From the NCBI GenBank assembly GCA_964348785.1, contig CAYGDO010000002.1, forward strand, positions 66,238 to 130,237: 64,000 bases of DNA, given 5' to 3'. Below the pieces are notes generated by a model. That model was not told the origin of the DNA and did no database searches. It saw only the letters and a program-made list of their open reading frames with translations. Positions 2,137-51,119 of the stretch are shown here, one piece after another. The position numbers were made by a program, and so were the translations under genes. The first letter of the stretch is position 1. Each line of letters opens with the position of its first letter. The stretch is from an uncultured Candidatus Saccharibacteria bacterium. Its GTDB lineage: Bacteria > Patescibacteriota > Minisyncoccia > Phycocordibacterales > 2-02-FULL-43-11.

Positions 2137-2166
2137 CCGCCACAAAATGTGGCGGTTTTGTTTTTT
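2137..2166 (+). terminator. rho-independent terminator
   Basis: ccgccac/gtggcgg stem followed by TTTTGTTTTTT. Confidence 0.7.
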
Positions 2167-2261
2167 ACTAAACCAAAAAAATTCATTTTAAATTTAATTA
2201 TGAAATAAAATAAAATTTAGTAAATATTTAAATATTTTATAAAAAGTTCATACTTTTAATT

Positions 2262-3065: not shown

Positions 3066-3098
3066 CAAAAACCGGAGTTTTTTCCGGTTTTTGTTTTT
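3066..3098. terminator. bidirectional intrinsic terminator (A-run, hairpin, T-run)
   Basis: aaaaacaaaa-accggag-tttttt-ccggttt-ttgttttt. Lies at the 3' end of the minus-strand gene 3147..3455. Confidence 0.6.
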
Positions 3099-3146
3099 AA
3101 TTTGTTTAATTTACAAAATTTAAGGATAAAAGACTAAAATCAGACT

Positions 3147-3455
3147 TTAATTGGCCGGGACAACCTGATCAGCCTTACCAGGTATAGCATCCTTTAACTT
3201 CTTTAGGCCTTCTAATCCCAAACCAATAATAACCTTATCCCAAATAAATCTAGCAGGTTTTGCTAAAAGATTATTCCAAATAGTTTTTACTAAGCCCCAA
3301 GCGTATCCCAAATTCTTTTTTACTGTTGGAGAATCAAAAACAGTTTGAATATTTAGACCAAAGAACCCTAAAACTACTAAAGCAATAATGATTAGCACGA
3401 TTGCTTGAAAAAAACCTCCCTGCCCTTTTTTATAAAAAAACATATTATTATTCAT
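3147..3455 (-). CDS. small membrane protein, hypothetical
   Basis: One strong TM segment ('AIVLIIIALVVLGFFGL'). Lies upstream in the same orientation as the M23 peptidase gene. Confidence 0.45.
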   Translation of the reverse strand: MNNNMFFYKKGQGGFFQAIVLIIIALVVLGFFGLNIQTVFDSPTVKKNLGYAWGLVKTIWNNLLAKPARFIWDKVIIGLGLEGLKKLKDAIPGKADQVVPAN

Positions 3456-3507
3456 ATGTCAATATTATATAATAAAAAATAATTTTAGAAAAGAAAAAAG
3501 TTGATAA

Positions 3508-6133: not shown

Positions 6134-6137
6134 AAAT

Positions 6138-7262: not shown

Positions 7263-7266
7263 AAAA

Positions 7267-8379: not shown

Positions 8380-8381
8380 TT

Positions 8382-9455: not shown

Positions 9456-9459
9456 AAAA

Positions 9460-10488: not shown

Positions 10489-11074
10489 CTTGTTTTAAAT
10501 CATCTACTAATTGTTCACTTTTCTGTTCTTTTTGTTCATTCACAGAACTCTTAAAACTTTCTATATCCCTTCTTACTTCTTCATAATTAGGCAAATCTTT
10601 TAAATTTGAAACGCCCATAAAAGCAAGCGAGTCTGGGGTCGGCTTATACAAAAGAGCTCTGTGGTCTTTTGGGTCTTCAAATTTCTCTATCAATCCTCTA
10701 ATCATCAAATTTCGTAGAACAAATCCGGAATTAACACCTCTTATGTAATCTATTTCTTTTCTTGAAACTGGCCCCTGATATAAAACAATAGACAAAGTTT
10801 CCATTCCGGCTTTTCCGATATCTCTATTAAACTCATCTTTCGTTAATTCAGAAAAAAAATCAGCCAGGGATGGGTTAGTAGCCAAGACCAATTCATCACC
10901 TGTTTCCATAAGAAAAATACCCCGATTCTTAAGTTCTTCTTTAAGCTTAGTTATAGAATTCTTAACATTTTCCTCATTTTCTTTTAGCAAAGAGGCCACC
11001 TTTTTAATAGTAGTGGGTTCTGCCTTAAAGAATAACAAGGCCTCTATTTTTTGTTCTAAACTTATTTGATCCAT
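10463..11074 (-). CDS. scpB: segregation and condensation protein B
   Basis: 'IEALLFFKAEPTTIKKVASLL' ScpB N-terminal wHTH. Adjacent to scpA. Confidence 0.85.
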   Translation of the reverse strand: MDQISLEQKIEALLFFKAEPTTIKKVASLLKENEENVKNSITKLKEELKNRGIFLMETGDELVLATNPSLADFFSELTKDEFNRDIGKAGMETLSIVLYQGPVSRKEIDYIRGVNSGFVLRNLMIRGLIEKFEDPKDHRALLYKPTPDSLAFMGVSNLKDLPNYEEVRRDIESFKSSVNEQKEQKSEQLVDDLKQDDGQLGTE

Positions 11075-22300: not shown

Positions 22301-23615
22301 CGTTTTGGGAGTCGTAGCCAGTTTCAGTAATTCCTGAAAGGATTGAACGTACGCCGTTTACACCAACTCCGTAGGCAAATTCGTATTTCTTTTTCAAAAT
22401 ATCACTGACACGAATTTCAATTATTTTGAGTCGTTTGGCATTGGTACTTAAAAATGCAAACTTGTATGAAGAAATAGCACTGTCTGAACGAGTATCTTCA
22501 TATACAAAAGTGACTTTGTAAATTCCAGATACAACTTCTCCGGAATTTGCCTGATGATTGGTATAAGTAATTTCAGTTGGATATACCTGACCGCCAGTTA
22601 CCGTATAGTTATATGAAATGTAATTACCGTTTGAATCACGGACTTCATCTAGATACCATTTAGCAACACGAGAAGCATTTGCAGGGTCCGCGTTTCGTGA
22701 AGTTGCCACCGAACCGAAAGTGTAGACTCTGCCGTTTTTATCATAAACCTTCCAACTCGTAGTGGTGGCGTTGTAAACATATTTCAAAAATTCGCCGGAA
22801 TCAACGCGAGGTTGATATAAACCAGCAATTGTAGTTGAGGCTAATTCACCGGATAAGCTGGAACTGAAATAATCTTGACCATACATTACTATATTTCCCT
22901 GCTTATTGATTCTCTCAATTGATGGAATGTTAAAATCCCAACCATACCCCATCGTATTTATGTTGGAATTCTCGGACGAGTTATATGAAATATTTAAAGA
23001 TGTCTCAACACCTGCCCTACCGGAAGGTGTAACAATCGGATAGGAATATGAAAGCGCTCCCGAGGAAGCATTGGCTTCGGGAAGAGTGGTTTTTCTATAA
23101 GCAAAATTGGAATTATCGTAAGTGGTTGGCTTGTTTTCCAACTGAGCGCTAGTGGCTTCAATTTCTGGAGGTAACAAGTCTTGCGCGTCCGGAGAAACCT
23201 CTGGAATTTCAGTGTCCAACTTTGGAGCTTCCGGAGCAATCTCGGGCACCACTTCAGTTTTTGGATTTGCATCTACAGTTGTTTCGGGAGTTATTTGTGT
23301 CGGGTCAGGTAAAATAGTAGAGCCTATTTCAGAATTTTCTGATGCAGAACTGCTTGGTGTTGATGTATCAGGAGAAACGTTGGTCTCAGCTGGGGTAGAT
23401 GGAGATGCAGTTTGGTCAGAGGAGGTTTCAACGGAAGCTACGGGGACAGGAGGTTGCGAAGCAACCTCCTGCGCAAACGCCACAGCAATCGGTTGCATTA
23501 AAAAAGCAACCACCAAAAAACTGGTTACGATTTTTTGCGTATTTGATTTTCTTATTTTCTTTGTAGAAACAATTGAAAAAAAGAAATTCATAGAATTTTT
23601 ACTGACACTTCCCAA
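16362..23615 (-). CDS. Tc-toxin-like TcB/TcC fusion / RHS polymorphic toxin: signal, S/T/P linker, SpvB domain, FG-GAP beta-propeller, YD repeats with LamG insertion, RHS core, C-terminal toxin domain
   Basis: SpvB-like N-terminal region. 'ADLNGDGLTD/DVNGDGLDD/LDINADGLVD' FG-GAP repeats. Many YD repeats ('YTYDALGR','YEYDSLGNL','YQYDDVGNL'). RHS core 'YHLIDHLGS...YYPYG...RYYDGARGQFLNQDPV...NPVTYKDPDGRF'. About 195-aa tip follows. Confidence 0.85.
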   Translation of the reverse strand: MGSVSKNSMNFFFSIVSTKKIRKSNTQKIVTSFLVVAFLMQPIAVAFAQEVASQPPVPVASVETSSDQTASPSTPAETNVSPDTSTPSSSASENSEIGSTILPDPTQITPETTVDANPKTEVVPEIAPEAPKLDTEIPEVSPDAQDLLPPEIEATSAQLENKPTTYDNSNFAYRKTTLPEANASSGALSYSYPIVTPSGRAGVETSLNISYNSSENSNINTMGYGWDFNIPSIERINKQGNIVMYGQDYFSSSLSGELASTTIAGLYQPRVDSGEFLKYVYNATTTSWKVYDKNGRVYTFGSVATSRNADPANASRVAKWYLDEVRDSNGNYISYNYTVTGGQVYPTEITYTNHQANSGEVVSGIYKVTFVYEDTRSDSAISSYKFAFLSTNAKRLKIIEIRVSDILKKKYEFAYGVGVNGVRSILSGITETGYDSQNVATTLPQTTFEYTKGFENPVLPTGLEPAISSGTFSWALGSFFYGPERGGDVYADLNGDGYTDSFVLGINPYESNSFNIQVEWNKLGVAGSNSLPNLRFAYHTRGSNGSGPEDSGARIADLNGDGLTDFFGVPVTLFNAGSCTNATCPPPPNPPTLYLNSGINSLDNSYTYISTTTPLLVAKGSFVADTNGDGLPEIYGREISGWEERRRVGAMDVNGDGLDDTKTSDRYSSFRIGTGDGGLTGPMVPIFGDSPDHTLMMTDGDGNDMGVRYLDINADGLVDVLRGWVLPNNPNFDNGYTTGDYNEVYINTGNGFVKSSTLKSPYFIKINPYNWKWNFSYQLTDYYDTNGDTLVDIPSGPTTRADILKTITYPQGGKTSIDYKTSASGERFNLKLPTVLWIVSKITTTDGVGGEPQVDTYTYADGQGFFNGSHDRKFAGFGKVTKDSGKSVTISYFHQGNGDNSSTGETGDSYGKIGSVYKTEVFDREGKLFARNQNIYSESPLAGVNSAGFTSSAPVFVYLSKKIEESFDGTTSHKDHATEYSYDTSNGNLISSVDYGEVTSASTNTLASYSFVDIGNDKTITNVEYASNAGVSTSTSIQIHYEVSHKTTNSQSGNVISESKTYFDDLPFGQLLEGNGTKQESLISDGRYSITSATYNPFALVATSTDANGNSTGYSYDTYNLFPISVTNHLNQKTTYLYDYALGKPIQITDSNNQIYSKAYDAFGRTLQEKQPDGNSVVVSGISASLVTKTIYQYTDTPNNISVKKVDFINSTLSNETYTYFDGIGREIQTRKQSENPNTFIVSDIIYDSEGRVGKQSLPYFSDGSGKTSATSDSSLYTSFTYDALGRNVQKTDALGTTNTYFSPGQTKITDTLGKSKIYYKDVFGRLTRVDEFNYPDTYSTFYEYDSLGNLVKITDALQNIRNFTYDFSGRRLLAEDLHTPSDTAFGVYSYQYDDVGNLTGKTDPNGTRTVYTYDSLNRLGKIEAASSPISTIPVGVRTTYTYDACDFGIGKLCAVSYADDSVGANLEMNSTSYAYTPAGQAKTETKIIGGKTFISSYLYNLGGGVTEMTGVDSKKTSYIYNSAGLVDSISATGVSTTTPVTQIGAFDYSPLGQLKTITYGNGVVATNTYDPARLYRLTNKKTLSANNLQLQNLSYTYDSVGNILQIVDNSETNTKKIATYKYDDLYRLVDALATPNQQSFAYNPLGNIISKIEGQVSLNPYSLDVEGDSSQYASVPTNAGISGGPITIEAWIKPESLPSAGFNIIASQQDAVTNVGYSLSTSYTDGSHHINFDRHIEGVGGARIIYDTTLSVGSWYHIVGTYNGTEMNLYLATSTSSGHTLVKGPTLAVGRGYGGFNELAIGKATFPNPHNWDGLVDDVRFWNTSRSLVDLDSNYLTELSGNEANLVAYYKLGNNYYDFTANAYHLTAFGAPIFNENTPFSSAVGKFTTTNYFYDGTDYANPHASTVTGSSVATNTLSYDKSGNLISFGNISYIYDYNNRLISVANGLATSTYAYDHGGARVKVSDGKGGVTLYPSKYFNAGYNSDDVVVSETSHVFVGDTLLSTFDKKTPVAPKLTNANAGTCVIPETGDFTLISSCTIVGSVTAPASVIVPVGKVLTVTADSTLYINLKASKLLVKKGGGVLIKKGGTIRQLKPIDLTSSSSLSYHLIDHLGSITLSTDTAGKVVELIDYYPYGSIRADEGGSPKEQRKYIGQEFDASTGLSYLNARYYDGARGQFLNQDPVFWEVGMSKEGKEALLNPQVQNSYSYGGNNPVTYKDPDGRFLPALVAVAGVLTMYAPQITSFAQSLLTPLGQVAVSQVIDDVDKGNYGMAAVGALTAGEIPAGKVVPVFEGIWSKGTKLTLADNAIYHAGKHAEKFGFKNTKEYIKGARDFVTDAMNGKTSLKIDAGGVARAYDSLSNSFAVFQINPKTGGTVINTFFKPSAGQAYFDRQAGQLINNLQSLSNSLKSLLKSLK

Positions 23616-41358: not shown

Positions 41359-42615
41359 CTAATTTTGTTGATGATAGTGGAAAAGAAAATCATTAAAAAA
41401 TACTGTTTGAGCAAATAAAAATGGATCTCTTTCAATAATACTTGGTGAATTTAAATATTTAATAAACAAATCAGCATCTAAAGCCTCAGCATTTATCGGA
41501 TAGGGACTCCTGCCGAAGACGGGTATTTTTTTACTCGTAATCAAATCGGCAAAAAGATGTCCTGAACCATCTCCCACTAAAATAAAAGCTTTGCTAGGCA
41601 TAAAAAATTGCCTAGAAATATCAGAAATCGATTCTGAAAATAATGCTAGCCAATCTTCCTCAACTTGTTTCAAAATATTTTTTAATTTTTCAGATAATTT
41701 TGGGCTGGTATTCTTTTCATCATGCACTCTAATCATTGAGAGAGCTAGATTGGGAGTAAGTCCGTGCATATCTTCCATAATTTTTCTGGCGATAAAATTT
41801 CTTCCTAGTGGAAAAGAGGCGTTGTCAGTAACGATACCATTTTTTACAACTGTAATATCTGTCGTCTCTCCGCTAATGTGAATAAGCATAAAATCTTTTT
41901 CATCGGGAAAAACTTTCCCCAAGACATCGTTGTAAACATGAACAGCTGAGTGAAATTCTATATCTGCACCGACAAAGTGCTTTAAACAAATTTTAGACAA
42001 ACTCCTTTCAACATCCTTAGACATCACACTAAAAAACATAAATAGCTCTAGCTCGGAACATTCTTTATTAAAAATATTTTTTACGTTATAACCATTAACA
42101 AAAGAGCCGACGACCACTTTCTCCACAACTTCAAAATGTTTAATTTCGCCCACAATATCATATTCTTCTTTAGCTTCTTTAGATAAAGAATGAAGAAATT
42201 GTTCTGATTCTCTATCAAGCAACTCCTTTAAAAATTTCTTATCAATCATAACAGGCTTTTGAAAAGAAAAATTTAAAGATTTTGTAGCATCAATATTCCA
42301 AGGAGAAGATACTGAACAAAAAATTTTATAGTAACTTGCTTTAACATCCTTTCCGTTCTTTCCAAGCAAAAAGGCCTTATCGGCCACCGACTTTAAAACA
42401 TCATCCAAAACACCAGACATCAAAGGTAACATCCTATGATTTGAAGACTTCAATTGTATTGGTATTTGTTTTCTTACAGAAAAAATAATCTCCGGTTTAG
42501 CTTCTTTTTGAAAATTAACTAAAGAAGCACCAACACTTCCACCACCAATATCTACCAAAATCGCTCTTCCTTCTGTAAATTCCTTATGTCCTTTAAGCAA
42601 TGAGAAAAAACTCAT
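41359..42615 (-). CDS. actin-fold ATPase, FtsA/PilM-like
   Basis: 'AILVDIGGGSVGASLV' phosphate-1 and 'HISGETTDITVVKNG' phosphate-2 motifs. Confidence 0.6.
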   Translation of the reverse strand: MSFFSLLKGHKEFTEGRAILVDIGGGSVGASLVNFQKEAKPEIIFSVRKQIPIQLKSSNHRMLPLMSGVLDDVLKSVADKAFLLGKNGKDVKASYYKIFCSVSSPWNIDATKSLNFSFQKPVMIDKKFLKELLDRESEQFLHSLSKEAKEEYDIVGEIKHFEVVEKVVVGSFVNGYNVKNIFNKECSELELFMFFSVMSKDVERSLSKICLKHFVGADIEFHSAVHVYNDVLGKVFPDEKDFMLIHISGETTDITVVKNGIVTDNASFPLGRNFIARKIMEDMHGLTPNLALSMIRVHDEKNTSPKLSEKLKNILKQVEEDWLALFSESISDISRQFFMPSKAFILVGDGSGHLFADLITSKKIPVFGRSPYPINAEALDADLFIKYLNSPSIIERDPFLFAQTVFFNDFLFHYHQQN

Positions 42616-42644: not shown

Positions 42645-44516
42645 TTAAACAAGCACGGCCTTGATTCTTCTTACTCCAGCTGAAACAGCTTCTTCTTTAG
42701 AAATTTTAAACGTACCAACAAGCTCGCTGGTATTCGAAACATGAGGACCTCCACAAAATTCTTTTGAGTATGCGTTGTCTAATGTATCTCCAATGTAATA
42801 GATGGAGACCTCATCACCATATTTCTCACCAAAAAAATGTCTGGCTCCAGTTTTTTCAGCATCTTTTAAAGGCATAACGATCTTGTTAACTGGCAATTTA
42901 GCTTTTATTTTATCATTTACTATTTCTTCTGCTTTCTTAATTTGTTCTGCTGTCATTTTTTGGGGATATGAAAAATCAAATCGAAGTCTTTCGGAAGTAA
43001 TATTACTTCCCTTTTGACCTACGCCTTCGCCCAAGACATCATGCAAAGCTTGATGCAATAGATGCGTCGCAGTGTGATATCGGACAACTTGCTCACTATT
43101 GTCAGCCAAACCTCCTTTAAATTTTTGTTCGGCGCCTGCGCGAGAAAGATCTTGATGTTTTTTCATTTCAGATTTAAATCCCTCTAAATCAACCGCGACA
43201 CCCCTTTCGACTGCAAGTTCCAAAGTCATCTCAATCGGAAATCCGTAACTAGAAAAAAGGACAAACGCGTCCCTGCCAGAAATATTATTTTTTGCTAATT
43301 TCTCAAATTCACGCAAACCGAACATAATTGTACCAACGAATTTAGTTTCCTCTAGAGCGATTTTATTTTCTATTTCTGCCTGTTTTGCCAAAAGGTTTGG
43401 ATAACAATCTTTATACTCCTCAATTATCTTGCCGACAAAAAAAGCTGCCGAGATGTCAGATTTAAGCTTATGAAGATGGTATACCGCTCTTCGCAAAATC
43501 CGTCTAACGAAATAACCTTGATCAGTATTTGAAGGATCAACACCGTCACCAATCAAAAATACAACGGCACGTAGATGATCTGCAACGATACGAAAGGATT
43601 TTTTCAGCGATAAGTCTCCGTAAGATTTTCCAGACAATTTCTCTAATTCTTTTATAAATGAATCAAAAACATCAATATTAAAAATATCTCTATAATCATT
43701 AACAGCCATCGCCATACGCTCTAATCCTCCACCGAAATCTACATTCCTCTGCGGTAATTTTGAAAAAGTTCCATCAACATTTTTCTTGTATTCCATAAAC
43801 ACATTATTACCGATCTCCAAAAAACGCCCGCAATCGCAGTTGGGGTGACAATGCTCACCAAACTTTTTGTCATGAATAATATCTGTAAATTCATAGAACA
43901 TTTCTGAATCCGGTCCTCCTGGCTCTCCTTTTGGCATATTCTCAGGAATTCCAGCTCTACTCCACCAATTTTTCCTAGCATCGTAATAAAAAATTCTTCC
44001 GCCTTGCATACCCAACTTATAACCATTTTCTTCGCTACCTATTTCTACTTCCTTGGCTTCCAATCCTTTTTGATTAAAGAGATTTTTCCATAACTCTGCG
44101 GATTCAACATCTTTAGGAATATTATTTTTTTTGTCACCAATAAAAACTGTAAAATATAATTTTTTAGGATCAATATTCATCTCTTCCGTTAAAAACTTAA
44201 ACATCCACTCTACCTGCTCTTTTTTAAAATAGTCACCAAGAGACCAATTACCCAACATTTCAAAAAAAGTAGTGTGACGATTGTCACCCACTTCTTCTAT
44301 ATCTACTGTACGAAAAGATTTCTGTGAATCAGCAATTCTACTGCCGAGAGGATGTTTTTCTCCAAGCAAATAAGGCACCATAGGTTGCATACCAGAACCA
44401 GTAAAAAGTGTAGTTGGGTCATTTTCAGGCACCAAAGAAGCAGAAGGAATGATGGCATGTCCTCTTTTTTTAAAGAAATCTAAAAATCTTTGCCTTATTT
44501 CATTTGAAGTTAACAT
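42645..44516 (-). CDS. alaS: alanine--tRNA ligase, short form lacking the C-terminal C-Ala domain
   Basis: AlaRS N-terminus '...DPTTLFTGSGMQ...FEMLGNWSLGDYFK'. Editing-domain 'HTATHLLHQAL' and 'CGGPHV'. 623 aa. Confidence 0.85.
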   Translation of the reverse strand: MLTSNEIRQRFLDFFKKRGHAIIPSASLVPENDPTTLFTGSGMQPMVPYLLGEKHPLGSRIADSQKSFRTVDIEEVGDNRHTTFFEMLGNWSLGDYFKKEQVEWMFKFLTEEMNIDPKKLYFTVFIGDKKNNIPKDVESAELWKNLFNQKGLEAKEVEIGSEENGYKLGMQGGRIFYYDARKNWWSRAGIPENMPKGEPGGPDSEMFYEFTDIIHDKKFGEHCHPNCDCGRFLEIGNNVFMEYKKNVDGTFSKLPQRNVDFGGGLERMAMAVNDYRDIFNIDVFDSFIKELEKLSGKSYGDLSLKKSFRIVADHLRAVVFLIGDGVDPSNTDQGYFVRRILRRAVYHLHKLKSDISAAFFVGKIIEEYKDCYPNLLAKQAEIENKIALEETKFVGTIMFGLREFEKLAKNNISGRDAFVLFSSYGFPIEMTLELAVERGVAVDLEGFKSEMKKHQDLSRAGAEQKFKGGLADNSEQVVRYHTATHLLHQALHDVLGEGVGQKGSNITSERLRFDFSYPQKMTAEQIKKAEEIVNDKIKAKLPVNKIVMPLKDAEKTGARHFFGEKYGDEVSIYYIGDTLDNAYSKEFCGGPHVSNTSELVGTFKISKEEAVSAGVRRIKAVLV

Positions 44517-44544
44517 AGAGAAAAATATACCAGAAAAAAGGCCA

Positions 44545-44575
44545 ATAAAAAAGGGCGGATTGCTCCACCCGCGAG
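44545..44575 (-). terminator. intrinsic terminator after the GC-rich ORF
   Basis: Minus strand: GGGTGGA-gcaa-TCCGCCC then TTTTTT. Confidence 0.5.
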
Positions 44576-45070
44576 TCAGTCCTTCCTCATTCTATAAGGA
44601 CTGGGCCCGTCTGGAGATCGGTCCAATAACTCTTGAACCCGATCCCTCATCCGAGGTTCCATTTTCTGAAGCAACCCCGCCATCGTGTCCGGACAAGCAG
44701 GTGAAGTCTCAGCGGTCAGTTGTGGCCAACCACCATCACCGTCCGCCGGATCCTGCATAGGCCAACCGTTGCCAGTTTCGGCCGTAACGGGAGGTGTAGA
44801 AGCCGGGACAAGTTCCACATCCGGCTCTCCAAACATTCGACACAAAACTGTCAGAATATTATTCTCCGCATCAATCCCAATCCCTAAAAACCTTCCCAGG
44901 GCATCCGAGACTACGGTAGAATCTGGGACACACTCACCGTGCGCAACGAAGCCCTGCTCTCCAACACTTACCCACTGACCGAACATCGGCGAACCGTCGA
45001 GCTGAAGACCGAGAATTCTCTGACGAGCTTCAGAAGTCAAAAAATTCACACCAGCTTTTTCATTACTCAT
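44576..45070 (-). CDS. hypothetical protein in a strongly GC-rich island
   Basis: ATG preceded by AGGAGG RBS (8-nt spacing). GC far above neighbours. Own terminator. Confidence 0.5.
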   Translation of the reverse strand: MSNEKAGVNFLTSEARQRILGLQLDGSPMFGQWVSVGEQGFVAHGECVPDSTVVSDALGRFLGIGIDAENNILTVLCRMFGEPDVELVPASTPPVTAETGNGWPMQDPADGDGGWPQLTAETSPACPDTMAGLLQKMEPRMRDRVQELLDRSPDGPSPYRMRKD

Positions 45071-45108
45071 AGAAAGATCCTCCTAAACACCAATTTACTC
45101 CAAAAAAA

Positions 45109-45444
45109 TCAGGCGTCAACAACCATAGATTCTTCCTTCAAAATCTTCTCTTTATTTTTAATTCCACGATTATACCCACCAAGAGAACCGTCAGATTTTA
45201 TAACTCGATGACACGGAACTTTAGGATTATAATTTGTATGTAAAATTGCTCCAACAGCTCGCGTTGCTTTTTCATTTCCAGCCAACTTTGCCACTTCCTT
45301 ATAAGACAAAGTCTCACCTTTTTTTATTTTTCGAACAATAGAAAAAACTTTATCCCTGAAAGAGAGTTTGTCCTGAATTTGCTTTTGATTCTTTTTTAAT
45401 TTTTGTTTTCTTTTCTCCATCTTCTTTTTTTTCTTCATTATCAA
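45109..45444 (-). CDS. ogt: methylated-DNA--protein-cysteine methyltransferase
   Basis: 'VPCHRVIKSDGSLGGY' MGMT active-site motif. 5' end overlaps the upstream nuclease ORF, so the true start may be the internal Met near 45420. Confidence 0.8.
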   Translation of the reverse strand: MIMKKKKKMEKRKQKLKKNQKQIQDKLSFRDKVFSIVRKIKKGETLSYKEVAKLAGNEKATRAVGAILHTNYNPKVPCHRVIKSDGSLGGYNRGIKNKEKILKEESMVVDA

Positions 45445-46207
45445 TTTTTAAATTCATCACAGAATCTTTAAATGCTTTGCCAGCCGATTCTCTATATTCA
45501 CAATACTCGCAACCTTGTCCAGATTTTGGTATTTTTTCTGAAACTAAACAATTTTTTATTTTTGGCAAAACCTCATCTATCCAATCCGCGTTTCCTGTAT
45601 ATGGAATTATATTCACATCAAATTCAAGTTTGGCATCAAAAGCTTCTCTATCCCTCTGACCATTAACATAAACAAAATAACCAGTATCCGACACTTCAAA
45701 ATTATTTTTTCGAAGTAACCATTGATAAACTTCCATCTGTCTTCTGTATTGATTATGCCAACGAGTGTCTTCCAATTCTTTGACCTCTTTATCCTTACTT
45801 GTAGCCTTATAATCAACCACATGAAGTTCACCAGTTTTGTTATTTTTCCAAATATCATCAACGGCTCCAAATATCAACAAATTTGTTTCCTTATCTAAAT
45901 ATTGAACACCGGTAAAATTATGCCTCCACTCATCCATCATTTCATTTTGAAAAGGTACAGCATCAACTCCAAAACTTTTCATCAAAGGGTGTGCTGTCTC
46001 TTTTGCCCTATGAAGATCAAATTCTTTCTTAAGAAGATGGTCAACAGCATTATTGAGCGTGAAAGACGGAATCGAAGGCCTACCCACTCCCAACCTCTGT
46101 TCAAGATAAAAACATCTAGAGCATTCCAAAAATAAATCAATTTTTGACCTTGAGACTTTAAATGGATTTTTCTGATTAGGAACAAATGGATTTTTTTTAA
46201 AAGGCAT
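45350..46207 (-). CDS. Cas4/RecB-like PD-(D/E)xK nuclease with Cys cluster
   Basis: 'GAVDDIW...LHVVDYKATS' (D...DYK motif III), N-terminal 'CSRC' and C-terminal 'CEYCEY' cysteines. Confidence 0.6.
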   Translation of the reverse strand: MPFKKNPFVPNQKNPFKVSRSKIDLFLECSRCFYLEQRLGVGRPSIPSFTLNNAVDHLLKKEFDLHRAKETAHPLMKSFGVDAVPFQNEMMDEWRHNFTGVQYLDKETNLLIFGAVDDIWKNNKTGELHVVDYKATSKDKEVKELEDTRWHNQYRRQMEVYQWLLRKNNFEVSDTGYFVYVNGQRDREAFDAKLEFDVNIIPYTGNADWIDEVLPKIKNCLVSEKIPKSGQGCEYCEYRESAGKAFKDSVMNLKIDNEEKKEDGEKKTKIKKESKANSGQTLFQG

Positions 46208-47066
46208 TTTGTTTAATATTATTTTGATGTGTTTGCTCCTGACTACAAACCTGTCTAGCTTCTTCAGAAATAATTTTTATACTTTGTTCTGAAAAACCCA
46301 AATTAACAAGTTTACTTGCATCCATTGCGTCCTTACATAAAACAACCCCAGATTCTATAAGAGTTCTTTTTTCAACCTGACTAATAGAATTAAGACAAGT
46401 TATAGGATGAAGCCCGACATCTTCGATAAAATCATGGAGATTGTGTTCTCTTGGATAATTCCAACCCATAAGACGAAGTCCGGCGCATCTAGCATAAGAA
46501 ATCGCCCTATCTGTAAATTTAGTATTTGTTATTAACCAAAATTCATCAAGTTTTCTTTTTTTACCGTAAGAAAAATCAATATTTTTTAAATCATCAGCTC
46601 TAGCTTTTACATAAAGTGCCACCTTTAAATCAGATTTTAAACCGATCTGATTATGAAATTTTGCTTCTGCCATTATAAGTTTATTCTCATTCCAAGCTAC
46701 CAAATCAATTTCATGCTCAGCACAATGCCCTTTTACAAAATGATTATTGTCCGATTCATAACCATACATCTTAAAAACACTAGCCATAAATTTTTCAAAA
46801 GGAAATCCTGAAGGACCAAGTTCTCCAAGAGCGCGTCTTAAAGAATATCTAGCGGCGGCAGGTTTTATTTTTTTACCCAATAGGTAAAAAGCATGATCAT
46901 AAATCATAGACGTGGACATTCCGTCTTCTAATTCCCTAGCAATATGTTCAACCACACCCTTAGCGACATTAACCTCCGCACCAGAATTCAAAAGTGATTG
47001 CTCTAGTTTATCTGGATTGAAAATCTCTCTCTGACCATTAGATTTTGTAATGTATATATCTTTCAC
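46197..47066 (-). CDS. ATP-cone domain fused to Mrr-like restriction-endonuclease-fold domain
   Basis: N-terminal ATP-cone-like 'ITKSNGQREIFNPDKL...'. C-terminal 'HEIDLVAWNENKLIMAEAKF' D-x-E-x-K-like core. Confidence 0.55.
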   Translation of the reverse strand: MKDIYITKSNGQREIFNPDKLEQSLLNSGAEVNVAKGVVEHIARELEDGMSTSMIYDHAFYLLGKKIKPAAARYSLRRALGELGPSGFPFEKFMASVFKMYGYESDNNHFVKGHCAEHEIDLVAWNENKLIMAEAKFHNQIGLKSDLKVALYVKARADDLKNIDFSYGKKRKLDEFWLITNTKFTDRAISYARCAGLRLMGWNYPREHNLHDFIEDVGLHPITCLNSISQVEKRTLIESGVVLCKDAMDASKLVNLGFSEQSIKIISEEARQVCSQEQTHQNNIKQNAF

Positions 47067-47107
47067 AGAGAAATTATACTACAGAAAAGAACCTTCGTTT
47101 AAAGGCT

Positions 47108-48310
47108 TTATGCCACTATTCCACCCCCCATACAAATATCACCTTTATAAAAAACTATTGATTGCCCCGATGCCACCATTTGAGGTTTTTTAAATTTTAC
47201 CTCTATTCCATTACTCATTTTTGCAATCTTGCAATTCTCAAGCTCTTGCCTATACCTAGTTCTAGCTAAAAAACCCTTTGTTCCTTCCTTTAAAAAAACA
47301 TTATCGTCAACTAACAAATTTAATTTCTTCAAGATTATTTTTTCATTTCTAAAATAAAAATTTTTATCATTTGAAACAGTAACCGTGTTATTTTTCAAAT
47401 CTTTAGCCACAACAAAATATGGTCTATCGTTTGGAGTTTTTTCTGTAATAGTAAAACCACCCCTTTCACCAATAGTCACAAAATAAGCCCCATCATGAAA
47501 ACCAATTTTTTTACCTTTTTCATTAAAAACTTCACCTTTTTTAGTTTTAATATAATGTTTCAGAAAATCTTTCATATCAACTTTGCCCAGAAAACAAACT
47601 CCCTGGCTATCTTTTTTCTTTGCCGTTGGTAAATTAAATTTCTTAGCCAACTTTCTGACTTCGCTTTTTTCCAAATGACCAACAGGAAAAAGTATTTTAG
47701 ACAGATGTTCTTTTTTAATATTCCACAAAAAATAACTTTGATCTTTATTTTTATCAATGCCAACCAACATTTGATAATGGAAAGTAGAAGGTAGAAAGTA
47801 GCCAGACTTTTGACTCTCATCTTTTTTCATTCCACTTTCCAATTTCAACTTTCTACTTTCCAATATTTGTGCATAATGTCCAGTCGCCACATAATCCGCA
47901 CCTTGCCTTATTGCCCAATCAAAAAAAGCTCCGAATTTTATTTCCTTATTACACATCACATCAGGATTGGGAGTTTTCCCTTTTCTATATTCCTCAATCA
48001 TATAATCAGCCACTTTTTCTTTATACTCCTTCTCTAAATCTAAAGTCATAAAAGGAATATCGAGAGTTGCGCAAACTCTCATGGCATCAAGTCTCTCTTC
48101 CTTCCAAGTACATTCCATAAAATCTGGTGACCATGTTTTTATAAAAACACCAACAACATCAAAACCTGCCTTTTTAAGTAAAGCAGCAGAGACCGAAGAA
48201 TCCACACCTCCGGACATACCGACAAAGGCCTTATTTTTATTTATTTTTTCTAATTGACTTATCACAAAAATGATGTTATCACGTATCATGGTTAAACCCA
48301 AGTTCATCAT
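47108..48310 (-). CDS. mnmA: tRNA-specific 2-thiouridylase
   Basis: PP-loop 'VGMSGGVDSS', 'CFLG' catalytic Cys region. Confidence 0.85.
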   Translation of the reverse strand: MMNLGLTMIRDNIIFVISQLEKINKNKAFVGMSGGVDSSVSAALLKKAGFDVVGVFIKTWSPDFMECTWKEERLDAMRVCATLDIPFMTLDLEKEYKEKVADYMIEEYRKGKTPNPDVMCNKEIKFGAFFDWAIRQGADYVATGHYAQILESRKLKLESGMKKDESQKSGYFLPSTFHYQMLVGIDKNKDQSYFLWNIKKEHLSKILFPVGHLEKSEVRKLAKKFNLPTAKKKDSQGVCFLGKVDMKDFLKHYIKTKKGEVFNEKGKKIGFHDGAYFVTIGERGGFTITEKTPNDRPYFVVAKDLKNNTVTVSNDKNFYFRNEKIILKKLNLLVDDNVFLKEGTKGFLARTRYRQELENCKIAKMSNGIEVKFKKPQMVASGQSIVFYKGDICMGGGIVA

Positions 48311-48650
48311 GTCGCCGTCATCTTTTCAAAAATCAGAACCCCAAACGCTGTCGGAGTTTGTCGCCCTGAGTCAAGAAATGGGTATAGTGGTCAAAAATCC
48401 CCCGACAAGTGTCGATCTCGATCGGCTAGCTGAGAGGTTCGCCGGTATAGAAATACCCCTTCAGCCTCTCCCTTGTTCTTTCAGTTATTTCGGTGGTTGG
48501 TATAGTGACCAATGGAAACGCGAAGTCCGGACAGAAGATGGTCGGTTACTTTTCACCATCAGGATCGGCGATCAACATATCTGCAGATTTCACTTCACTC
48601 TCACCATAGAGCCAGAAGCGTTCAGGCTTCTCTCTATACCGATACCATAA
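48309..48650 (+). CDS. hypothetical plus-strand ORF in a GC-rich island (could instead be non-coding)
   Basis: GC-rich. Plus-strand terminator hairpin at 48651-48680. No convincing RBS. 5' end overlaps the mnmA start divergently. Confidence 0.3.
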   Translation: MSPSSFQKSEPQTLSEFVALSQEMGIVVKNPPTSVDLDRLAERFAGIEIPLQPLPCSFSYFGGWYSDQWKREVRTEDGRLLFTIRIGDQHICRFHFTLTIEPEAFRLLSIPIP

Positions 48651-48713
48651 AGATTGCGCACGCAGTCTTTTTTATTTTCTATACCCCACTCTCCACCTTC
48701 TACTCTCTAACTC

Positions 48714-49733
48714 CTACCTCAAATATTTCTCCTTATTCAAAACATGTTCATCGTGTGTCGAAGCGTAATACATTTTGCCATCCTTACCAGTTAAATAATA
48801 AAGATAATTAGATTTTTTTGGATAAATAACAGCTTTAATAGAATCAAGCCCCGGATTGGTTATTGGGGTAGGAGGCAAACCAATTCTAGTATAAGTATTG
48901 TAAGGAGAATCCTCTTTTAAATCCTCAGTAGTTAAAGTAAAAGAATGTTTACCATTCCAATATCGAAAGACCGCATCCACTTGAAGTGGCATCTTTATAT
49001 CCAATCTTTTCCACAAAATTCCAGCAATCATTTGTTTACTTAAATAATCCTTACCCTCTTCTTCAACAATAGAGGCCATATTTATTATTTGATCTAAAGT
49101 GCGTTTGGTTTTTTTAATATCTGATTCAAGAGGTTTAATCTTTAATAAAAAATTATTGTTCAAAGTTTTTATAACATCATCGGGGCTTACATCATACAAA
49201 AATAAATAAGTGTCAGGAAAAAGTTTTCCTTCAAAAGCTAACGCTTTTTTTACAAATTCCTCACTTTTAAAATCACTAATTTTTTGTTTCAAAATTTCTG
49301 CCATTTCTTTGACGGATGTTCCTTCAGGAAAAACAAACTCTAGAGATTCAAAGCCCCTCTTTCCTTCAACCAAACGGTACAAAACAAAAAAAAGATTTTG
49401 CCTTTTATCAAATAAATAAGCCTCAGCTTTAACCTTTGCGTCACCCGGAAAAAAAGAAACCAAAACCCTAAAAGCTAAAGGTGATTTTATAATTTTTTCT
49501 TTATCCAGTCTTAAAGCGACCGCATTTAAAGTCTCACCTTTTTCAATTTTAAAAATAAAACTTTTTTCTCCTTTGAGAAAATTAACCGGAGTTGCAATAA
49601 AAATAAAATAAAAAACTAAAAAAATAAAGCCGAAAAACCCAAAGATATAAAATAATCGTTTGAGTCTAGAATCCCTTTTACCGTACAAATCAAAAAAATG
49701 ATTGTCTCTTATATTTTTATTGTCAAAATCCAT
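48714..49733 (-). CDS. mltG: endolytic murein transglycosylase MltG (YceG family)
   Basis: N-terminal TM. '...GLPPTPITNPGLDSIKAVIYP...YLYYLTGKDGKMYYASTHDEHVLNKEKY' YceG motif. Confidence 0.8.
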   Translation of the reverse strand: MDFDNKNIRDNHFFDLYGKRDSRLKRLFYIFGFFGFIFLVFYFIFIATPVNFLKGEKSFIFKIEKGETLNAVALRLDKEKIIKSPLAFRVLVSFFPGDAKVKAEAYLFDKRQNLFFVLYRLVEGKRGFESLEFVFPEGTSVKEMAEILKQKISDFKSEEFVKKALAFEGKLFPDTYLFLYDVSPDDVIKTLNNNFLLKIKPLESDIKKTKRTLDQIINMASIVEEEGKDYLSKQMIAGILWKRLDIKMPLQVDAVFRYWNGKHSFTLTTEDLKEDSPYNTYTRIGLPPTPITNPGLDSIKAVIYPKKSNYLYYLTGKDGKMYYASTHDEHVLNKEKYLR

Positions 49734-49739
49734 AAAAAA

Positions 49740-51119
49740 CTAACGTGGTAAATTGGTAGGCGGCTCCGATTTCTTTGAAGGAATTCTACCCAAAGTTGGA
49801 GTGCCAGCGACAGTACCAGGAAAATGAAAAATTGTTGCCAATTCTTCAGTCATTAAAATCATAGGCGTAGCTTCAAAATTCTTAAACGGATACTGAAAAA
49901 AAGACCGCATTTTGTAAGCTTCAAGCATTTCCTCCTCCATAACGTTTCTTCTAAATCTTTTCAAATCTCTCCACGGTTCATCTGGATCCGTATACCAGCC
50001 AAGCTTAAAGCCATTTGAGTTAGCTGAATTATATTGACGAAAACTACCAACCAAACCAGTTATAGAAATTGGTGTAAAAGATTCTTTAGTACAAACATAT
50101 ATACCACGAATGATAGCTTCAAACGGAAATTTGTCTCGGCTGCGCTCAAGAGATTTTATAGTTTCAATTTGTCCAGGAGTATAATTTGGAAAACCTGGAA
50201 TTTTTTCTCCATCGGAATTTATTCTAACGGAGGTCGCCTCTTTCTTTATTTCCGCTATCTTCTCATCTATTTCCTCTTTCCAGTCACCTTTCAATCCTAA
50301 AAATCTACCGTCAATAGTCTTTTCTTTTCTATGGGCTTGAACAATTATCTGAATCCAAACCTGCTCACCCTTCTTTAAAGATCCTAAGTATTCTAAAACG
50401 GAAGTCATTGGATCAATTTTAAATTCTTCTTTTGTATCTAGTTTATCTAAACCATAATCTACATATGTTTTTATAGGGAAAACATCTTCTTTTTCTAAAG
50501 TGAAATAGGTTCCCCACATCGGAAAATTAATTGGGTCGTGATGAATAGATTTTGTATAATCTTCGGCTTCATAAATCTCGATAGTTGGATACTGAGCATA
50601 AAGTTGAGCTTCTATTAAATTTCTCCATTTTTTCAAAGCCCAAATAAAAAACCTTACTTCACCATCAATGGAAGCTATTTCAAAAGAAAACCAAGGCCTT
50701 ACCTTTCCTAAAGAAAAAGCTTCCTTGGTAGTTGCGGAACCAGTTTGATATAAAGAAGTAAAAAATATCTCCATTGCCAGGGGGCTTTTATTGGTCTCTT
50801 TAGGGATTTTTATTTCAAGAAGAACTGACCCCTCTTTCCTTATCCAAGCAGCCCTTATGTATCTCATATAATAGTTGAAAAGTATGTTAGCCAAAATCAA
50901 AGGAACAAAAAATGGTGCAAAAACCATAACCATTTTGATAACCCCAAAAATTATCGGGCTATGAAAGAAAAAACCTCCAAAAAAATAAACTGAGACTAAA
51001 ATACCTAAAAAAGAAAGCCAAAAGACCGACCACTCCAAAAAATGTCCGCTTTTTGGTTCAGCCAGTTTATAAAATAAATCTAAAAGTTCGTAAAAAAGTT
51101 TTTTAAGAAACTTCAACAC
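49740..51119 (-). CDS. hypothetical membrane protein (459 aa)
   Basis: Two N-terminal TM helices. No assignable motif. Confidence 0.45.
   Translation of the reverse strand: MLKFLKKLFYELLDLFYKLAEPKSGHFLEWSVFWLSFLGILVSVYFFGGFFFHSPIIFGVIKMVMVFAPFFVPLILANILFNYYMRYIRAAWIRKEGSVLLEIKIPKETNKSPLAMEIFFTSLYQTGSATTKEAFSLGKVRPWFSFEIASIDGEVRFFIWALKKWRNLIEAQLYAQYPTIEIYEAEDYTKSIHHDPINFPMWGTYFTLEKEDVFPIKTYVDYGLDKLDTKEEFKIDPMTSVLEYLGSLKKGEQVWIQIIVQAHRKEKTIDGRFLGLKGDWKEEIDEKIAEIKKEATSVRINSDGEKIPGFPNYTPGQIETIKSLERSRDKFPFEAIIRGIYVCTKESFTPISITGLVGSFRQYNSANSNGFKLGWYTDPDEPWRDLKRFRRNVMEEEMLEAYKMRSFFQYPFKNFEATPMILMTEELATIFHFPGTVAGTPTLGRIPSKKSEPPTNLPR

What the first reader, a model, noticed from the sequence alone, without database searches (positions are those of the whole stretch)
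45109..47066. Clustered Cas4-like Fe-S nuclease, ATP-cone/Mrr-like nuclease and Ogt: candidate nucleotide-sensing DNA repair or defence module
Three consecutive minus-strand genes are involved. The first is an ATP-cone domain fused to an Mrr-type restriction-endonuclease fold. The second is a RecB/Cas4-like PD-(D/E)xK nuclease with N-terminal CxxC and C-terminal CxxC cysteines (DYK motif 'VVDYKATS'). The third is MGMT/Ogt. The nuclease ORF and ogt overlap by about 95 nt as annotated. An ATP-cone allosteric sensor on a restriction-like nuclease is an uncharacterised architecture. No CRISPR array or cas1/cas2 is nearby, so the Cas4-like protein is stand-alone.
Basis: partly seen in the sequence, partly recalled or inferred. 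Interest (0 to 1): 0.55.

Follow-up and report, generated by a model that had tools for sequence, protein, structure and literature searches.

The report
Three housekeeping DNA-maintenance genes in Parcubacteria
The three genes are real and their domains were read correctly, but they are conserved, vertically inherited housekeeping genes in a fixed gene block of a tiny-genome bacterium, not a phage-defence system; the one real lead is that the nuclease with the ATP-sensing domain belongs to a very large untested family.

Summary
Three overlapping minus-strand genes encode:
- an ATP-cone + AF1548/Mrr-like PD-(D/E)xK nuclease (46197-47066);
- a solo Cas4-like RecB-family nuclease with CxxC…CxxC cysteines (45350-46207);
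- a single-domain Ogt with an intact PCHR site (45109-45420/45444).

The Cas4-like/ogt overlap is real. It is identical in two other assemblies and recurs in relatives. The frame offset varies between loci, so it is not a fusion or frameshift.

The "module/defence" reading is only partly supported.
- Both nuclease families have thousands of members. They are as conserved as AlaRS and MnmA.
- Neither matches any phage record, and there are almost no plasmid matches or defence-model hits.
- The near-constant arrangement across 80 species is DUF8128-mltG-mnmA-ATP-cone nuclease…alaS.
- Among 65 species loci with enough downstream sequence, Cas4-like follows in 26%, Ogt in 22%, both in 17%, and a family-4-like uracil-DNA glycosylase in 62%.

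In Bacteroidota and Chlamydiota, full-length homologues of the ATP-cone nuclease often precede a β-CASP nuclease, an AMP/thymidine-phosphorylase-like gene and a PRPP-synthetase-like gene.

Best reading: Cas4-like and Ogt are repair genes. The ATP-cone nuclease is probably adenine-nucleotide-gated and tied to nucleic-acid turnover or salvage. All three belong to known kinds, and interest is modest.

The parts
46197..47066 (-). ATP-cone + AF1548/Mrr-like PD-(D/E)xK nuclease + AF1548-like C-terminal domain, 289 aa, GTG start
   Evidence: Pfam. PDB 1Y88 at E=4e-30. AF2 model with pLDDT 84, and Foldseek to 1Y88 at E=3.6e-14, TM 0.80. A 100% identical protein is in the database. D121, E134 and K136 are invariant.
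46860..47057 (-). ATP-cone domain (aa 4-69)
   Evidence: PF03477 scores 26.9 bits against a cut-off of 25.8. K8, G11, K20, S24 and L25 are invariant across Patescibacteria, Bacteroidota and Chlamydiota. Foldseek aligns this part to E. coli NrdR 9fxk at 25% identity over 88 columns.
46467..46808 (-). Mrr_cat / AF1548-like nuclease core (aa 87-200) with the H118-E-x-D121 … E134-x-K136 motif
   Evidence: PF04471 scores 24.0 bits against a cut-off of 21. Invariant columns. The motif corresponds to the D38/E51/K53 predicted for AF1548 in PMC1821046.
46248..46406 (-). AF1548-like C-terminal domain (aa 221-273)
   Evidence: PF22357 scores 27.6 bits against a cut-off of 23.9. It is aligned to 1Y88 residues about 140-195.
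46197..46207 (-). 11-nt overlap between the stop of the ATP-cone nuclease gene and the ATG of the Cas4-like gene
   Evidence: Read directly from the sequence.
45350..46207 (-). Solo Cas4-like (PF12705) RecB-family nuclease, 285 aa, with CxxC (C29, C32) … CxxC (C233, C236), D117/D118, D132-Y-K134 and Q157xxxY161
   Evidence: Pfam, PADLOC and NCBIfam. Invariant columns. AF2 model with pLDDT 89. Foldseek hits to Cas4 7mi4, AdnAB, MGME1, lambda exonuclease, Exo5 and AddB.
45353..45373 (-). C-terminal tail motif GQTLFQG after a Lys-rich linker; candidate partner-docking peptide, possibly for the sliding clamp
   Evidence: 48 of 120 Cas4-like homologues end in [LM]F within their last 5 residues. The same test gives 1 of 120 ATP-cone nuclease homologues and 1 of 62 window ORFs, that one being this gene. 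The clamp-binding function is an inference.
45109..45444 (-). Single-domain Ogt/MGMT (maximal ORF 111 aa; probable start ATG 45420 or 45438), active site PCHRV
   Evidence: PF01035 at 1.8e-27 and TIGR00589 at 81.7 bits against a cut-off of 46.4. It aligns to human MGMT residues 94-172.
45350..45420 (-). Dual-coding overlap of the Cas4-like tail and the Ogt N-terminus (at least 71 nt, up to 95 nt)
   Evidence: The sequence is identical in two independent assemblies, L001 and L002. Domain-level overlap recurs in L004, L031, L071, L076 and L078 with differing frame offsets.
47108..48310 (-). mnmA (tRNA 2-thiouridylase), the near-constant upstream neighbour
   Evidence: Pfam families listed. mnmA lies immediately upstream of the ATP-cone nuclease gene in 53 of 71 species loci.
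44553..44570 (-). Terminator-like hairpin plus T-run that probably ends the co-directional gene run, downstream of the 164-aa ORFan and before alaS
   Evidence: No terminator-like site lies within the trio.

Best explanation
The three genes are co-directional and overlapping, and probably co-transcribed. They are housekeeping genes of a Parcubacteria (Paceibacteria, Taylorbacteria-like) genome. They lie in an ancestral syntenic block: sigma factor, DUF8128, mltG, mnmA, ATP-cone nuclease, a variable slot, then alaS. The variable slot holds Cas4-like, ogt, UDG, an HD 5'-deoxynucleotidase-like gene or MgtC in different lineages. The trio is not a dedicated three-part machine and not a defence system.

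Shown:
- the domain composition and the intact catalytic motifs of all three proteins;
- the overlaps;
- the synteny statistics;
- the size and high conservation of both nuclease families.

Inferred:
1. Cas4-like is a metal-cluster RecB-type exonuclease acting in DNA repair or end processing. It is possibly tethered to a partner, perhaps the sliding clamp, by its C-terminal xTLF tail.
2. Ogt is a suicide O6-alkylguanine alkyltransferase made of the catalytic domain only. It is translationally coupled to Cas4-like.
3. The ATP-cone protein is a DNA-directed nuclease whose activity or oligomeric state is set by ATP/dATP binding to the ATP-cone, as in NrdR and ribonucleotide reductases. Its cellular job is nucleic-acid turnover or nucleotide economy rather than restriction.
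For: Domains and motifs.

Folds.

Family size and conservation. The searches returned 6,952, at least 8,000 and 7,522 relatives. Median identity across species is 50% for the ATP-cone nuclease, 58% for Cas4-like and 55% for Ogt, against 52% for MnmA and 51% for AlaS.

Synteny. MnmA lies immediately upstream in 53 of 71 loci, and AlaS lies downstream in 55 of 65. Within 4 kb downstream, UDG occurs in 40, Cas4-like in 17, Ogt in 14 and an HD/YfbR-like gene in 11 of 65 loci.

Cas4-like and Ogt are linked in this locus (odds ratio 27.5, p=3.6e-6, not corrected for phylogeny). Other recurrent Cas4-like neighbours are UDG and PolA.

No defence signal.

Nucleotide-metabolism context of full-length homologues (38-42% identity, all key residues shared). 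A β-CASP/RMMBL nuclease lies immediately downstream in 5 of 9 non-CPR loci. In 4 of those 9 it is followed by a thymidine/AMP-phosphorylase-family gene and a ribose-phosphate pyrophosphokinase-like gene. PPK2, a P-type ATPase, phosphoketolase, glgP or acetate kinase lie nearby (Pfam).

CPR bacteria are known to run an archaeal-type nucleoside/AMP pathway (PMC5113843).

Against: No biochemical data exist for any of the three families in this lineage.
- The ATP-cone match passes Pfam's cut-off only marginally. The canonical 'KR' dipeptide is 'K-A/S' here, so ligand binding is unproven.
- The nucleotide-salvage context comes from Bacteroidota and Chlamydiota, not Parcubacteria. In Parcubacteria the neighbours are repair genes and mnmA.
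- Gene order in CPR genomes is broadly conserved, so adjacency is weak evidence for or against a functional link.
- The tight overlaps (11 nt and at least 71 nt) would also fit a dedicated functional unit.
- The sampled loci are the best-scoring 80 in each scan, so they are biased towards relatives of the query.
- The clamp-binding reading of the tail is motif resemblance only. The tail does not match the canonical QL[SD]LF motif exactly.
Confidence: 0.6

Rival explanations
1. Dedicated three-step repair pathway. Ogt, acting like an ATL lesion sensor, marks O6-alkylguanine. The ATP-cone nuclease nicks nearby and the Cas4-like exonuclease resects. The three proteins work as one unit.
For: The genes are tightly packed, with overlaps of 11 nt and at least 71 nt. 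Cas4-like and Ogt are linked within the locus. The full order ATP-cone nuclease, Cas4-like, Ogt, UDG recurs in distant lineages such as L007, L012, L076 and L078. Single-domain MGMT relatives (ATL proteins, PDB 3gva and 2kif) appear among the matches; that ATL proteins hand lesions to excision repair comes from general knowledge, not from a tool result.
Against: Only 11 of 65 loci carry all three genes. Two thirds of Cas4-like genes lie elsewhere. Ogt keeps its catalytic Cys, so it can repair directly without a nuclease. The ATP-cone nuclease is kept in most genomes without the other two next to it.
Confidence: 0.15
2. Nucleotide-sensing anti-phage module. The ATP-cone detects ATP/dNTP depletion or a surge during infection and releases the Mrr-like nuclease, as an abortive-infection or restriction-like response. 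The Cas4-like nuclease helps to degrade DNA.
For: The catalytic domain belongs to the Mrr (type IV restriction) family. After AF1548, the nearest folds are ligand-activated CARF nucleases (Can2, Cdn1) and defence effectors (MspJI, Avs4). PADLOC Cas4 profiles hit the second gene.
Against: No PADLOC system component is hit in the trio or in ten flanking ORFs. There is no methyltransferase partner and no CRISPR or cas genes. Neither nuclease matches any phage record, and plasmid matches number two and one. The genes keep a fixed position inside a housekeeping block in more than 50 species. Sequence conservation equals that of AlaRS and MnmA, which is unlike fast-evolving, patchy defence genes.
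Confidence: 0.07
3. The ATP-cone protein is mainly a nucleotide-responsive DNA-binding regulator, an NrdR analogue. It would use the nuclease-fold and C-terminal domains to bind DNA rather than to cut it.
For: ATP-cone plus a nucleic-acid-binding module is the NrdR design, and NrdR is a fold match.
Against: D121, E134, K136 and H118/E119 are invariant across three phyla, which argues for retained catalysis. No RNR genes lie next to it in any locus examined.
Confidence: 0.06

Closest known systems
AF1548 of Archaeoglobus fulgidus (PDB 1Y88; Pfam Mrr_cat + AF1548-like_C)
   Same: The nuclease core and C-terminal domain match: E=4e-30 by sequence, and 33% identity with TM 0.80 by fold. The D/E/K triad matches the one predicted for AF1548 (PMC1821046).
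   Different: AF1548 is 199 aa and has no ATP-cone. It is itself of unknown function, being a structural-genomics entry.
NrdR and the ATP-cones of ribonucleotide reductases
   Same: An N-terminal ATP-cone acts as an adenine-nucleotide sensor attached to a nucleic-acid-directed module. Pfam PF03477 is matched and there is a fold match to 9fxk.
   Different: The partner domain is a PD-(D/E)xK nuclease rather than a zinc ribbon or a reductase. The canonical KR dipeptide is K-A/S here. There are no RNR genes in the neighbourhood.
Ligand-gated PD-(D/E)xK nucleases Can2, Card1 and Cdn1 (CARF nucleases)
   Same: They have the same logic of a small-molecule sensor domain fused to a restriction-fold nuclease. 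They are the best fold matches after AF1548.
   Different: Their sensor is CARF binding cyclic oligoadenylates and they are linked to type III CRISPR. Here the sensor is an ATP-cone, there is no CRISPR, and the gene is a vertically inherited housekeeping gene.
Mrr-type (type IV) restriction endonucleases
   Same: The catalytic-domain family PF04471 is matched above its cut-off.
   Different: There is no Mrr N-terminal DNA-recognition domain. The distribution is neither patchy nor on mobile elements. No defence context was found.
Solo Cas4 and pfam12705 Cas4-like nucleases (Hudaiberdiev et al. 2017, PMC5704561)
   Same: This is a stand-alone RecB-family nuclease with a Cys cluster. [quoted passage not shown] The fold matches Cas4, AdnAB, AddB, MGME1 and Exo5.
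   Different: The score is below the cas4 equivalog cut-off (25.8 against 65 bits). The cysteines are arranged 2+2 (CxxC…CxxC) rather than as C…CxxCx5C. It carries a Lys-rich tail ending in xTLF. No cas1, cas2 or array is present.
Ogt/MGMT and alkyltransferase-like (ATL) proteins
   Same: The PF01035 domain carries PCHRV, the Tyr and Arg of the DNA-binding helix region, and the Asn hinge, all aligned to human MGMT residues 94-172. It is small, like the ATL proteins 3gva and 2kif.
   Different: It lacks the N-terminal domain of classical Ogt and MGMT. Unlike ATL proteins, it keeps the catalytic cysteine.

Membership tests
Cas4 (CRISPR-associated; TIGR00372 / PF01930) | RecB-type motifs: Asp, (D/E)xK, QxxxY | tested here: met
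   D117/D118, D132-Y-K134, Q157 and Y161 are invariant in 30 homologues.
Cas4 (CRISPR-associated; TIGR00372 / PF01930) | Score above the curated family cut-off | tested here: not met
   TIGR00372 scores 25.8 bits against a cut-off of 65. PF01930 is not reported for the window protein at E<=0.1. PF12705 is met, at 52.6 bits against 22.
Cas4 (CRISPR-associated; TIGR00372 / PF01930) | Four-Cys Fe-S site arranged as one N-terminal Cys plus a C-terminal CxxCx5C | tested here: not met
   The arrangement is C29xxC32 … C233xxC236, with C220 nearly invariant. The metal (Fe-S or Zn) cannot be identified with these tools.
Cas4 (CRISPR-associated; TIGR00372 / PF01930) | Genomic association with cas1, cas2 or a CRISPR array | tested here: not met
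   There is no repeat array in the 64 kb window and no Cas hits in ten flanking ORFs. None was seen among the recurrent neighbours in 160 related loci.
AF1548-like nucleases (Mrr_cat + AF1548-like_C) | Both domains present with the catalytic D…ExK | tested here: met
ATP-cone domain proteins | PF03477 match above cut-off and the ATP-cone fold | tested here: met
   26.9 bits against 25.8, which is marginal. Foldseek to NrdR gives probability 1.00 and 25% identity. K8, G11, E14 and K20 are conserved.
ATP-cone domain proteins | Binds ATP/dATP and transmits an allosteric signal | not testable with these tools
   This needs binding and activity assays. The canonical Arg after the first Lys is missing.
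Type IV restriction (Mrr-like) or a known anti-phage defence system | Hits to defence-system models; defence-island or mobile-element context; patchy distribution | tested here: not met
   PADLOC gives only a non-significant CARF_PDDEXK hit at 0.023. The flanks are clean. There are no phage matches. The gene keeps a fixed housekeeping synteny.
Ogt/MGMT | PF01035 / TIGR00589 above cut-off with the PCHR active site | tested here: met
   95.5 bits against 27, and 81.7 against 46.4. PCHRV aligns to the human C145 site.
Ogt/MGMT | Two-domain architecture (N-terminal Methyltransf_1N plus the C-terminal domain) | tested here: not met
   Only the C-terminal domain is present. The whole ORF is at most 111 aa.
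   All three occur together in 11 of 65 species loci. From the Cas4-like side, the ATP-cone nuclease lies upstream in 17 of 50 loci and Ogt downstream in 13 of 66.

The most novel reading that the evidence does not exclude
The ATP-cone/AF1548-like protein may be the founding example of an adenine-nucleotide-gated nuclease that controls entry of DNA or RNA into nucleotide salvage and catabolism. In Bacteroidota and Chlamydiota it would head an operon with a β-CASP nuclease, an AMP/thymidine-phosphorylase-like enzyme and a PRPP-synthetase-like enzyme. In Parcubacteria, which are reported to have limited biosynthetic capabilities (abstract), it would be a core gene that matches nucleic-acid scavenging to the ATP/dATP pool. 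A secondary reading is that the Cas4-like nuclease is a clamp-tethered repair exonuclease specific to small-genome bacteria.
Probability: 0.3. Interest if true: 0.6.

Novelty: new member of a known kind. Interest (0 to 1): 0.33.

Why it matters
As a defence or repair "module", the finding dissolves into conserved synteny, so it does not add a new system.

What remains useful is a pointer to two very large, strongly conserved and experimentally untouched families in Patescibacteria.

The ATP-cone nuclease would extend ATP-cone allostery beyond ribonucleotide reductase and NrdR to a nuclease. It could explain how organisms with limited biosynthetic capabilities (abstract) regulate nucleic-acid scavenging.

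The CxxC…CxxC Cas4-like nuclease, with its C-terminal docking-like tail, is a candidate core repair enzyme for genomes that lack much of the classical repair machinery.

The case also shows a practical annotation problem. Gene callers truncate ogt to avoid a real 71-95 nt overlap.

Tried and rejected
- **Fusion or programmed frameshift between Cas4-like and Ogt: rejected.** The frame offset between the two genes is 0, 1 or 2 in different loci, and no homologue is long enough to be a fusion.
- **Assembly or sequencing error at the A-rich junction: rejected.** The whole trio is base-identical in two other assemblies from different sequencing runs.
- **Structured RNAs in the region: nothing found.** There are no Rfam matches at gathering score in the window, and only two sub-threshold chance-level matches in 44400-48800. 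No tRNAs were found.
- **Sequence search of PDB with the ATP-cone part alone:** no match.
- **Literature on ATP-cone + nuclease:** three searches found no description of this architecture.
- **UDG, HD or MgtC homologues in the window:** none.
- **Correlation of ATP-cone nuclease and MnmA identities across loci, as a test of co-inheritance:** not significant (rho=-0.10) and not informative over this narrow range.
- **The Flagellatimonas plasmid context of a Cas4-like homologue:** uninformative, as the neighbours are hypothetical proteins.
Full report
**1. What is there**

The window is AT-rich (about 33-36% GC) and almost all genes lie on the minus strand. Homologues carry Patescibacteria/Parcubacteria names, mostly Taylorbacteria and Paceibacteria.

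Three consecutive minus-strand ORFs occupy 45109-47066.

- **Gene 1 (46197-47066, 289 aa).** It matches Pfam ATP-cone at aa 4-69, Mrr_cat at aa 87-200 and AF1548-like_C at aa 221-273, all above the curated cut-offs. The ATP-cone match passes only marginally. Residues 93-273 align to the structural-genomics protein AF1548 (PDB 1Y88) at E=4e-30.
- **Gene 2 (45350-46207, 285 aa).** It matches PDDEXK_1 at 8e-14 and several PADLOC Cas4 profiles. It scores far below NCBI's cas4 equivalog cut-off, at 25.8 against 65 bits.
- **Gene 3 (45109-45444).** It contains only the C-terminal MGMT domain (1.8e-27) with PCHRV. It aligns to human MGMT residues 94-172, including the DNA-binding and active-site residues.

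**2. The overlaps**

Gene 1's stop and gene 2's ATG overlap by 11 nt.

For gene 3, the Pfam domain starts at residue 29 of the maximal ORF. That position is upstream of gene 2's stop. There is no ATG, GTG or TTG between residue 9 and residue 29. The start must therefore be TTG 45444, ATG 45438 or ATG 45420, giving overlaps of 95, 89 or 71 nt.

The last conserved residues of gene 2 (…TLFQG*) and the first conserved residues of the Ogt domain (LSFRDK) are encoded by the same nucleotides in different frames.

- The whole trio is base-identical in two other assemblies from different sequencing runs, so this is not an assembly slip.
- The source's gene caller avoided the overlap by calling a 61-aa truncated Ogt.
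- In relatives that carry both genes, domain-level overlap recurs in L004, L031, L071, L076 and L078.
- The frame offset between the genes is 0, 1 or 2 in different loci. This excludes a conserved frameshift or fusion.
- No terminator-like site lies within the trio. The first one follows the next ORF, at 44570-44553.

**3. The proteins**

*ATP-cone nuclease.* An AF2 model has pLDDT 84. Its best PDB fold match is 1Y88 (E=3.6e-14, TM 0.80 on the target). The next matches are the ligand-gated CARF nucleases Cdn1, Can2 and VC1899, then MspJI, AspBHI and Avs4. NrdR matches the N-terminal part.

In 26 Parcubacteria sequences, and again in a 14-sequence alignment spanning Patescibacteria, Bacteroidota and Chlamydiota, these residues are invariant:
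- H118, E119, D121, E134 and K136, the PD-(D/E)xK triad, equivalent to AF1548 D38/E51/K53 as predicted in PMC1821046;
- C115, H138 and C194;
- the ATP-cone residues K8, G11 and K20;
- most positions of the linker motif GP[ST]G[FY]PFE.

The canonical ATP-cone 'KR' dipeptide is 'K-A/S' here, so nucleotide binding is plausible but unproven.

*Cas4-like nuclease.* An AF2 model has pLDDT 89. It matches Cas4 in the Cas4-Cas1-Cas2 complex (7mi4), the AdnAB and AddB nuclease domains, MGME1, lambda exonuclease, Exo5 and Dna2.

Invariant residues are C29/C32 and C233/C236, D117/D118, D132-Y-K134 and Q157…Y161. The cysteines are arranged 2+2, unlike the 1+3 pattern of Cas4, AddB and Dna2.

48 of 120 homologues end, after a variable Lys-rich linker, in xLF or xMF within their last five residues. 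The window protein ends in GQTLFQG. The same test gives 1 of 120 for the ATP-cone nuclease family. In the window it gives 1 of 62 ORFs, and that one is this gene.

This looks like a C-terminal docking peptide. It resembles bacterial sliding-clamp-binding motifs, but that resemblance rests on my own knowledge and does not match the QL[SD]LF consensus exactly. I treat it as a hypothesis.

**4. Family size and conservation**

The ATP-cone nuclease query returned 6,952 relatives. The Cas4-like query returned at least 8,000. A Bacteroidota homologue of the ATP-cone nuclease returned 7,522.

NCBI names in these lists include 'ATP cone domain-containing protein', 'restriction endonuclease' and 'ATPase'. 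The architecture is therefore catalogued but uncharacterised. Three literature searches found no paper describing an ATP-cone fused to a nuclease.

For the Cas4-like gene, Hudaiberdiev et al. 2017 already reported that solo Cas4 is over-represented in CPR bacteria and evolves mainly vertically. They suggested it may have an unknown repair or defence role (PMC5704561).

**5. Is the trio co-conserved?**

A scan of one genome per GTDB species found at least 598 species with the ATP-cone nuclease. I analysed the best 80 loci, each with 8-kb flanks.

- The constant arrangement is DUF8128, mltG, mnmA, ATP-cone nuclease … alaS.
- MnmA lies immediately upstream in 53 of 71 loci with enough upstream sequence.
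- AlaS lies within 8 kb downstream in 55 of 65 loci with at least 3 kb downstream.

| Gene within 4 kb downstream of the ATP-cone nuclease | Loci (of 65) |
|---|---|
| UDG-superfamily gene (PF03167, GEAPG motif) | 40 |
| Cas4-like | 17 |
| Ogt | 14 |
| MgtC | 14 |
| HD_3/YfbR-like 5'-deoxynucleotidase | 11 |
| Cas4-like and Ogt together | 11 |
| Any of UDG, Cas4-like or Ogt | 49 |

Within this locus, Ogt tracks Cas4-like: 11 of 17 loci with Cas4-like also have Ogt, against 3 of 48 without it. The odds ratio is 27.5 and p=3.6e-6, not corrected for phylogeny.

I then started from the Cas4-like gene in 80 metagenome loci.
- The ATP-cone nuclease lies upstream in 17 of 50 evaluable loci.
- Ogt lies just downstream in 13 of 66.
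- Other recurrent neighbours are UDG, PolA, a peroxiredoxin and MgtC.

So the trio is a recurring but minority arrangement. Cas4-like and Ogt form a real pair within a variable 'repair slot'. The ATP-cone nuclease is anchored to mnmA, not to them.

Median identity to the window proteins across species is 50% for the ATP-cone nuclease, 58% for Cas4-like and 55% for Ogt. The figures for MnmA and AlaS are 52% and 51%. These genes evolve like core genes.

**6. Defence?**

- PADLOC gives only the generic Cas4 profiles for gene 2 and nothing significant for genes 1 and 3.
- Ten flanking ORFs give only cross-family domain hits: PP-loop for MnmA, and a sigma-factor helix-turn-helix.
- There is no CRISPR-like array.
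- Neither nuclease has any match in 50,697 phage records.
- In 72,556 plasmids, the ATP-cone nuclease has two matches and the Cas4-like nuclease has one.

The defence reading has no positive support beyond fold kinship with Mrr and Can2.

**7. A functional lead for the ATP-cone nuclease**

The two plasmid matches are from Pontibacter (Bacteroidota) and Criblamydia (Chlamydiota). They are full-length at 38-40% identity. In both, the gene heads the same operon: ATP-cone nuclease, a β-CASP/RMMBL metallo-β-lactamase nuclease, a roughly 500-aa thymidine/AMP-phosphorylase-family protein, and a ribose-phosphate pyrophosphokinase-like protein.

In Criblamydia the operon is flanked by phosphoketolase, glgP and acetate kinase.

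I looked up seven more non-CPR homologues.
- The β-CASP gene lies directly downstream in three of them (Cyclobacterium, a Saprospiraceae MAG, and one further contig). That makes 5 of 9 in all.
- Two of those three also carry the phosphorylase and Prs-like genes, making 4 of 9 in all.
- PPK2 and a P-type ATPase recur nearby.

This context concerns nucleic-acid breakdown and adenylate or pentose-phosphate metabolism. It fits an ATP-sensing domain. It also fits the known reliance of CPR bacteria on an archaeal-type nucleoside/AMP pathway (PMC5113843).

The lead is indirect for the window's gene, because it comes from other phyla. In Parcubacteria the only neighbour with a nucleotide-catabolism flavour is the HD/YfbR-like gene, in 11 of 65 loci.

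**8. Verdict**

The sequence observation is correct. The interpretation as one nucleotide-sensing repair or defence module is only partly supported.

Most likely, these are three independently conserved housekeeping genes that are co-transcribed in a long syntenic run.
- Cas4-like and Ogt are a translationally coupled repair pair. In many relatives a UDG gene occupies the same slot.
- The ATP-cone nuclease is a member of a very large, untested family. It is probably an adenine-nucleotide-gated nuclease connected with nucleic-acid turnover or salvage.

Each gene is a new member of a known kind. Interest is modest (0.33). The main value is the testable hypothesis about the ATP-cone nuclease family and the annotation lesson about the real ogt overlap.

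Noticed in passing
window 44576-45070 (-), GC-rich island 44560-45080: A 164-aa ORF has 48-58% GC in a roughly 34% GC genome. It has a strong AGGAGG Shine-Dalgarno site and is followed by a terminator-like hairpin. It is a complete ORFan: it finds only itself among 1.84 billion representative proteins, has no Pfam or PADLOC hit, and has no homologue in 160 related loci. As RNA it folds somewhat better than shuffles (z=-2.8), but there is no Rfam match. It lies between ogt and alaS, the stretch that holds a UDG gene in many relatives. It could be a recent acquisition, an unrecognised RNA, or a real lineage-specific protein.
   Followed up: partly
window 48311-48713: A 403-nt GC-rich (about 48%) gap between mltG and mnmA has no minus-strand ORF. 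A gap of similar size is present in related loci, but blastn finds no sequence conservation. There is no Rfam match and no fold signal (z=-0.96).
   Followed up: partly
window 45353-45373 and homologues P0121-P0240: About 40% of Cas4-like homologues end in xLF-COOH (ETLF, GTLF, QTLF, KKLF and so on) after a variable Lys-rich linker. Many of the others end in poly-Lys. This may be a docking peptide for the sliding clamp or another partner.
   Followed up: partly
L163 (Pontibacter plasmid) 1972-6597; L164 (Criblamydia plasmid) 5995-10602; L167; L171: A conserved operon in Bacteroidota and Chlamydiota runs ATP-cone nuclease, β-CASP/RMMBL nuclease, AMP/thymidine-phosphorylase-like gene, PRPP-synthetase-like gene. 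PPK2, a P-type ATPase, a GAPDH-like gene, an SDF transporter, PFK or phosphoketolase often lie nearby. I found no description of it in three literature searches on ATP-cone/nuclease terms.
   Followed up: partly
window 45109-45294 versus 45109-45444: The source assemblies' gene caller annotated ogt as a 61-aa fragment starting at GTG V51. This removes the first 22 or so residues of the MGMT domain, evidently to avoid the long overlap with the Cas4-like gene.
   Followed up: yes
window 16362-23615 (-): A single 2,417-aa ORF coincides with the only other raised-GC stretch of the window (about 40-42% GC). It was not analysed.
   Followed up: no
window 1-64000: No tRNA gene and no Rfam family reached threshold anywhere in the 64 kb.
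   Followed up: no
window 41359-42615 (-) and 49740-51119 (-): Two conserved proteins of unknown function belong to the same syntenic block. The 418-aa ORF after alaS has no Pfam hit but has homologues at +3/+4 in 15 loci. The 459-aa DUF8128 protein lies upstream of mltG in most loci.
   Followed up: no
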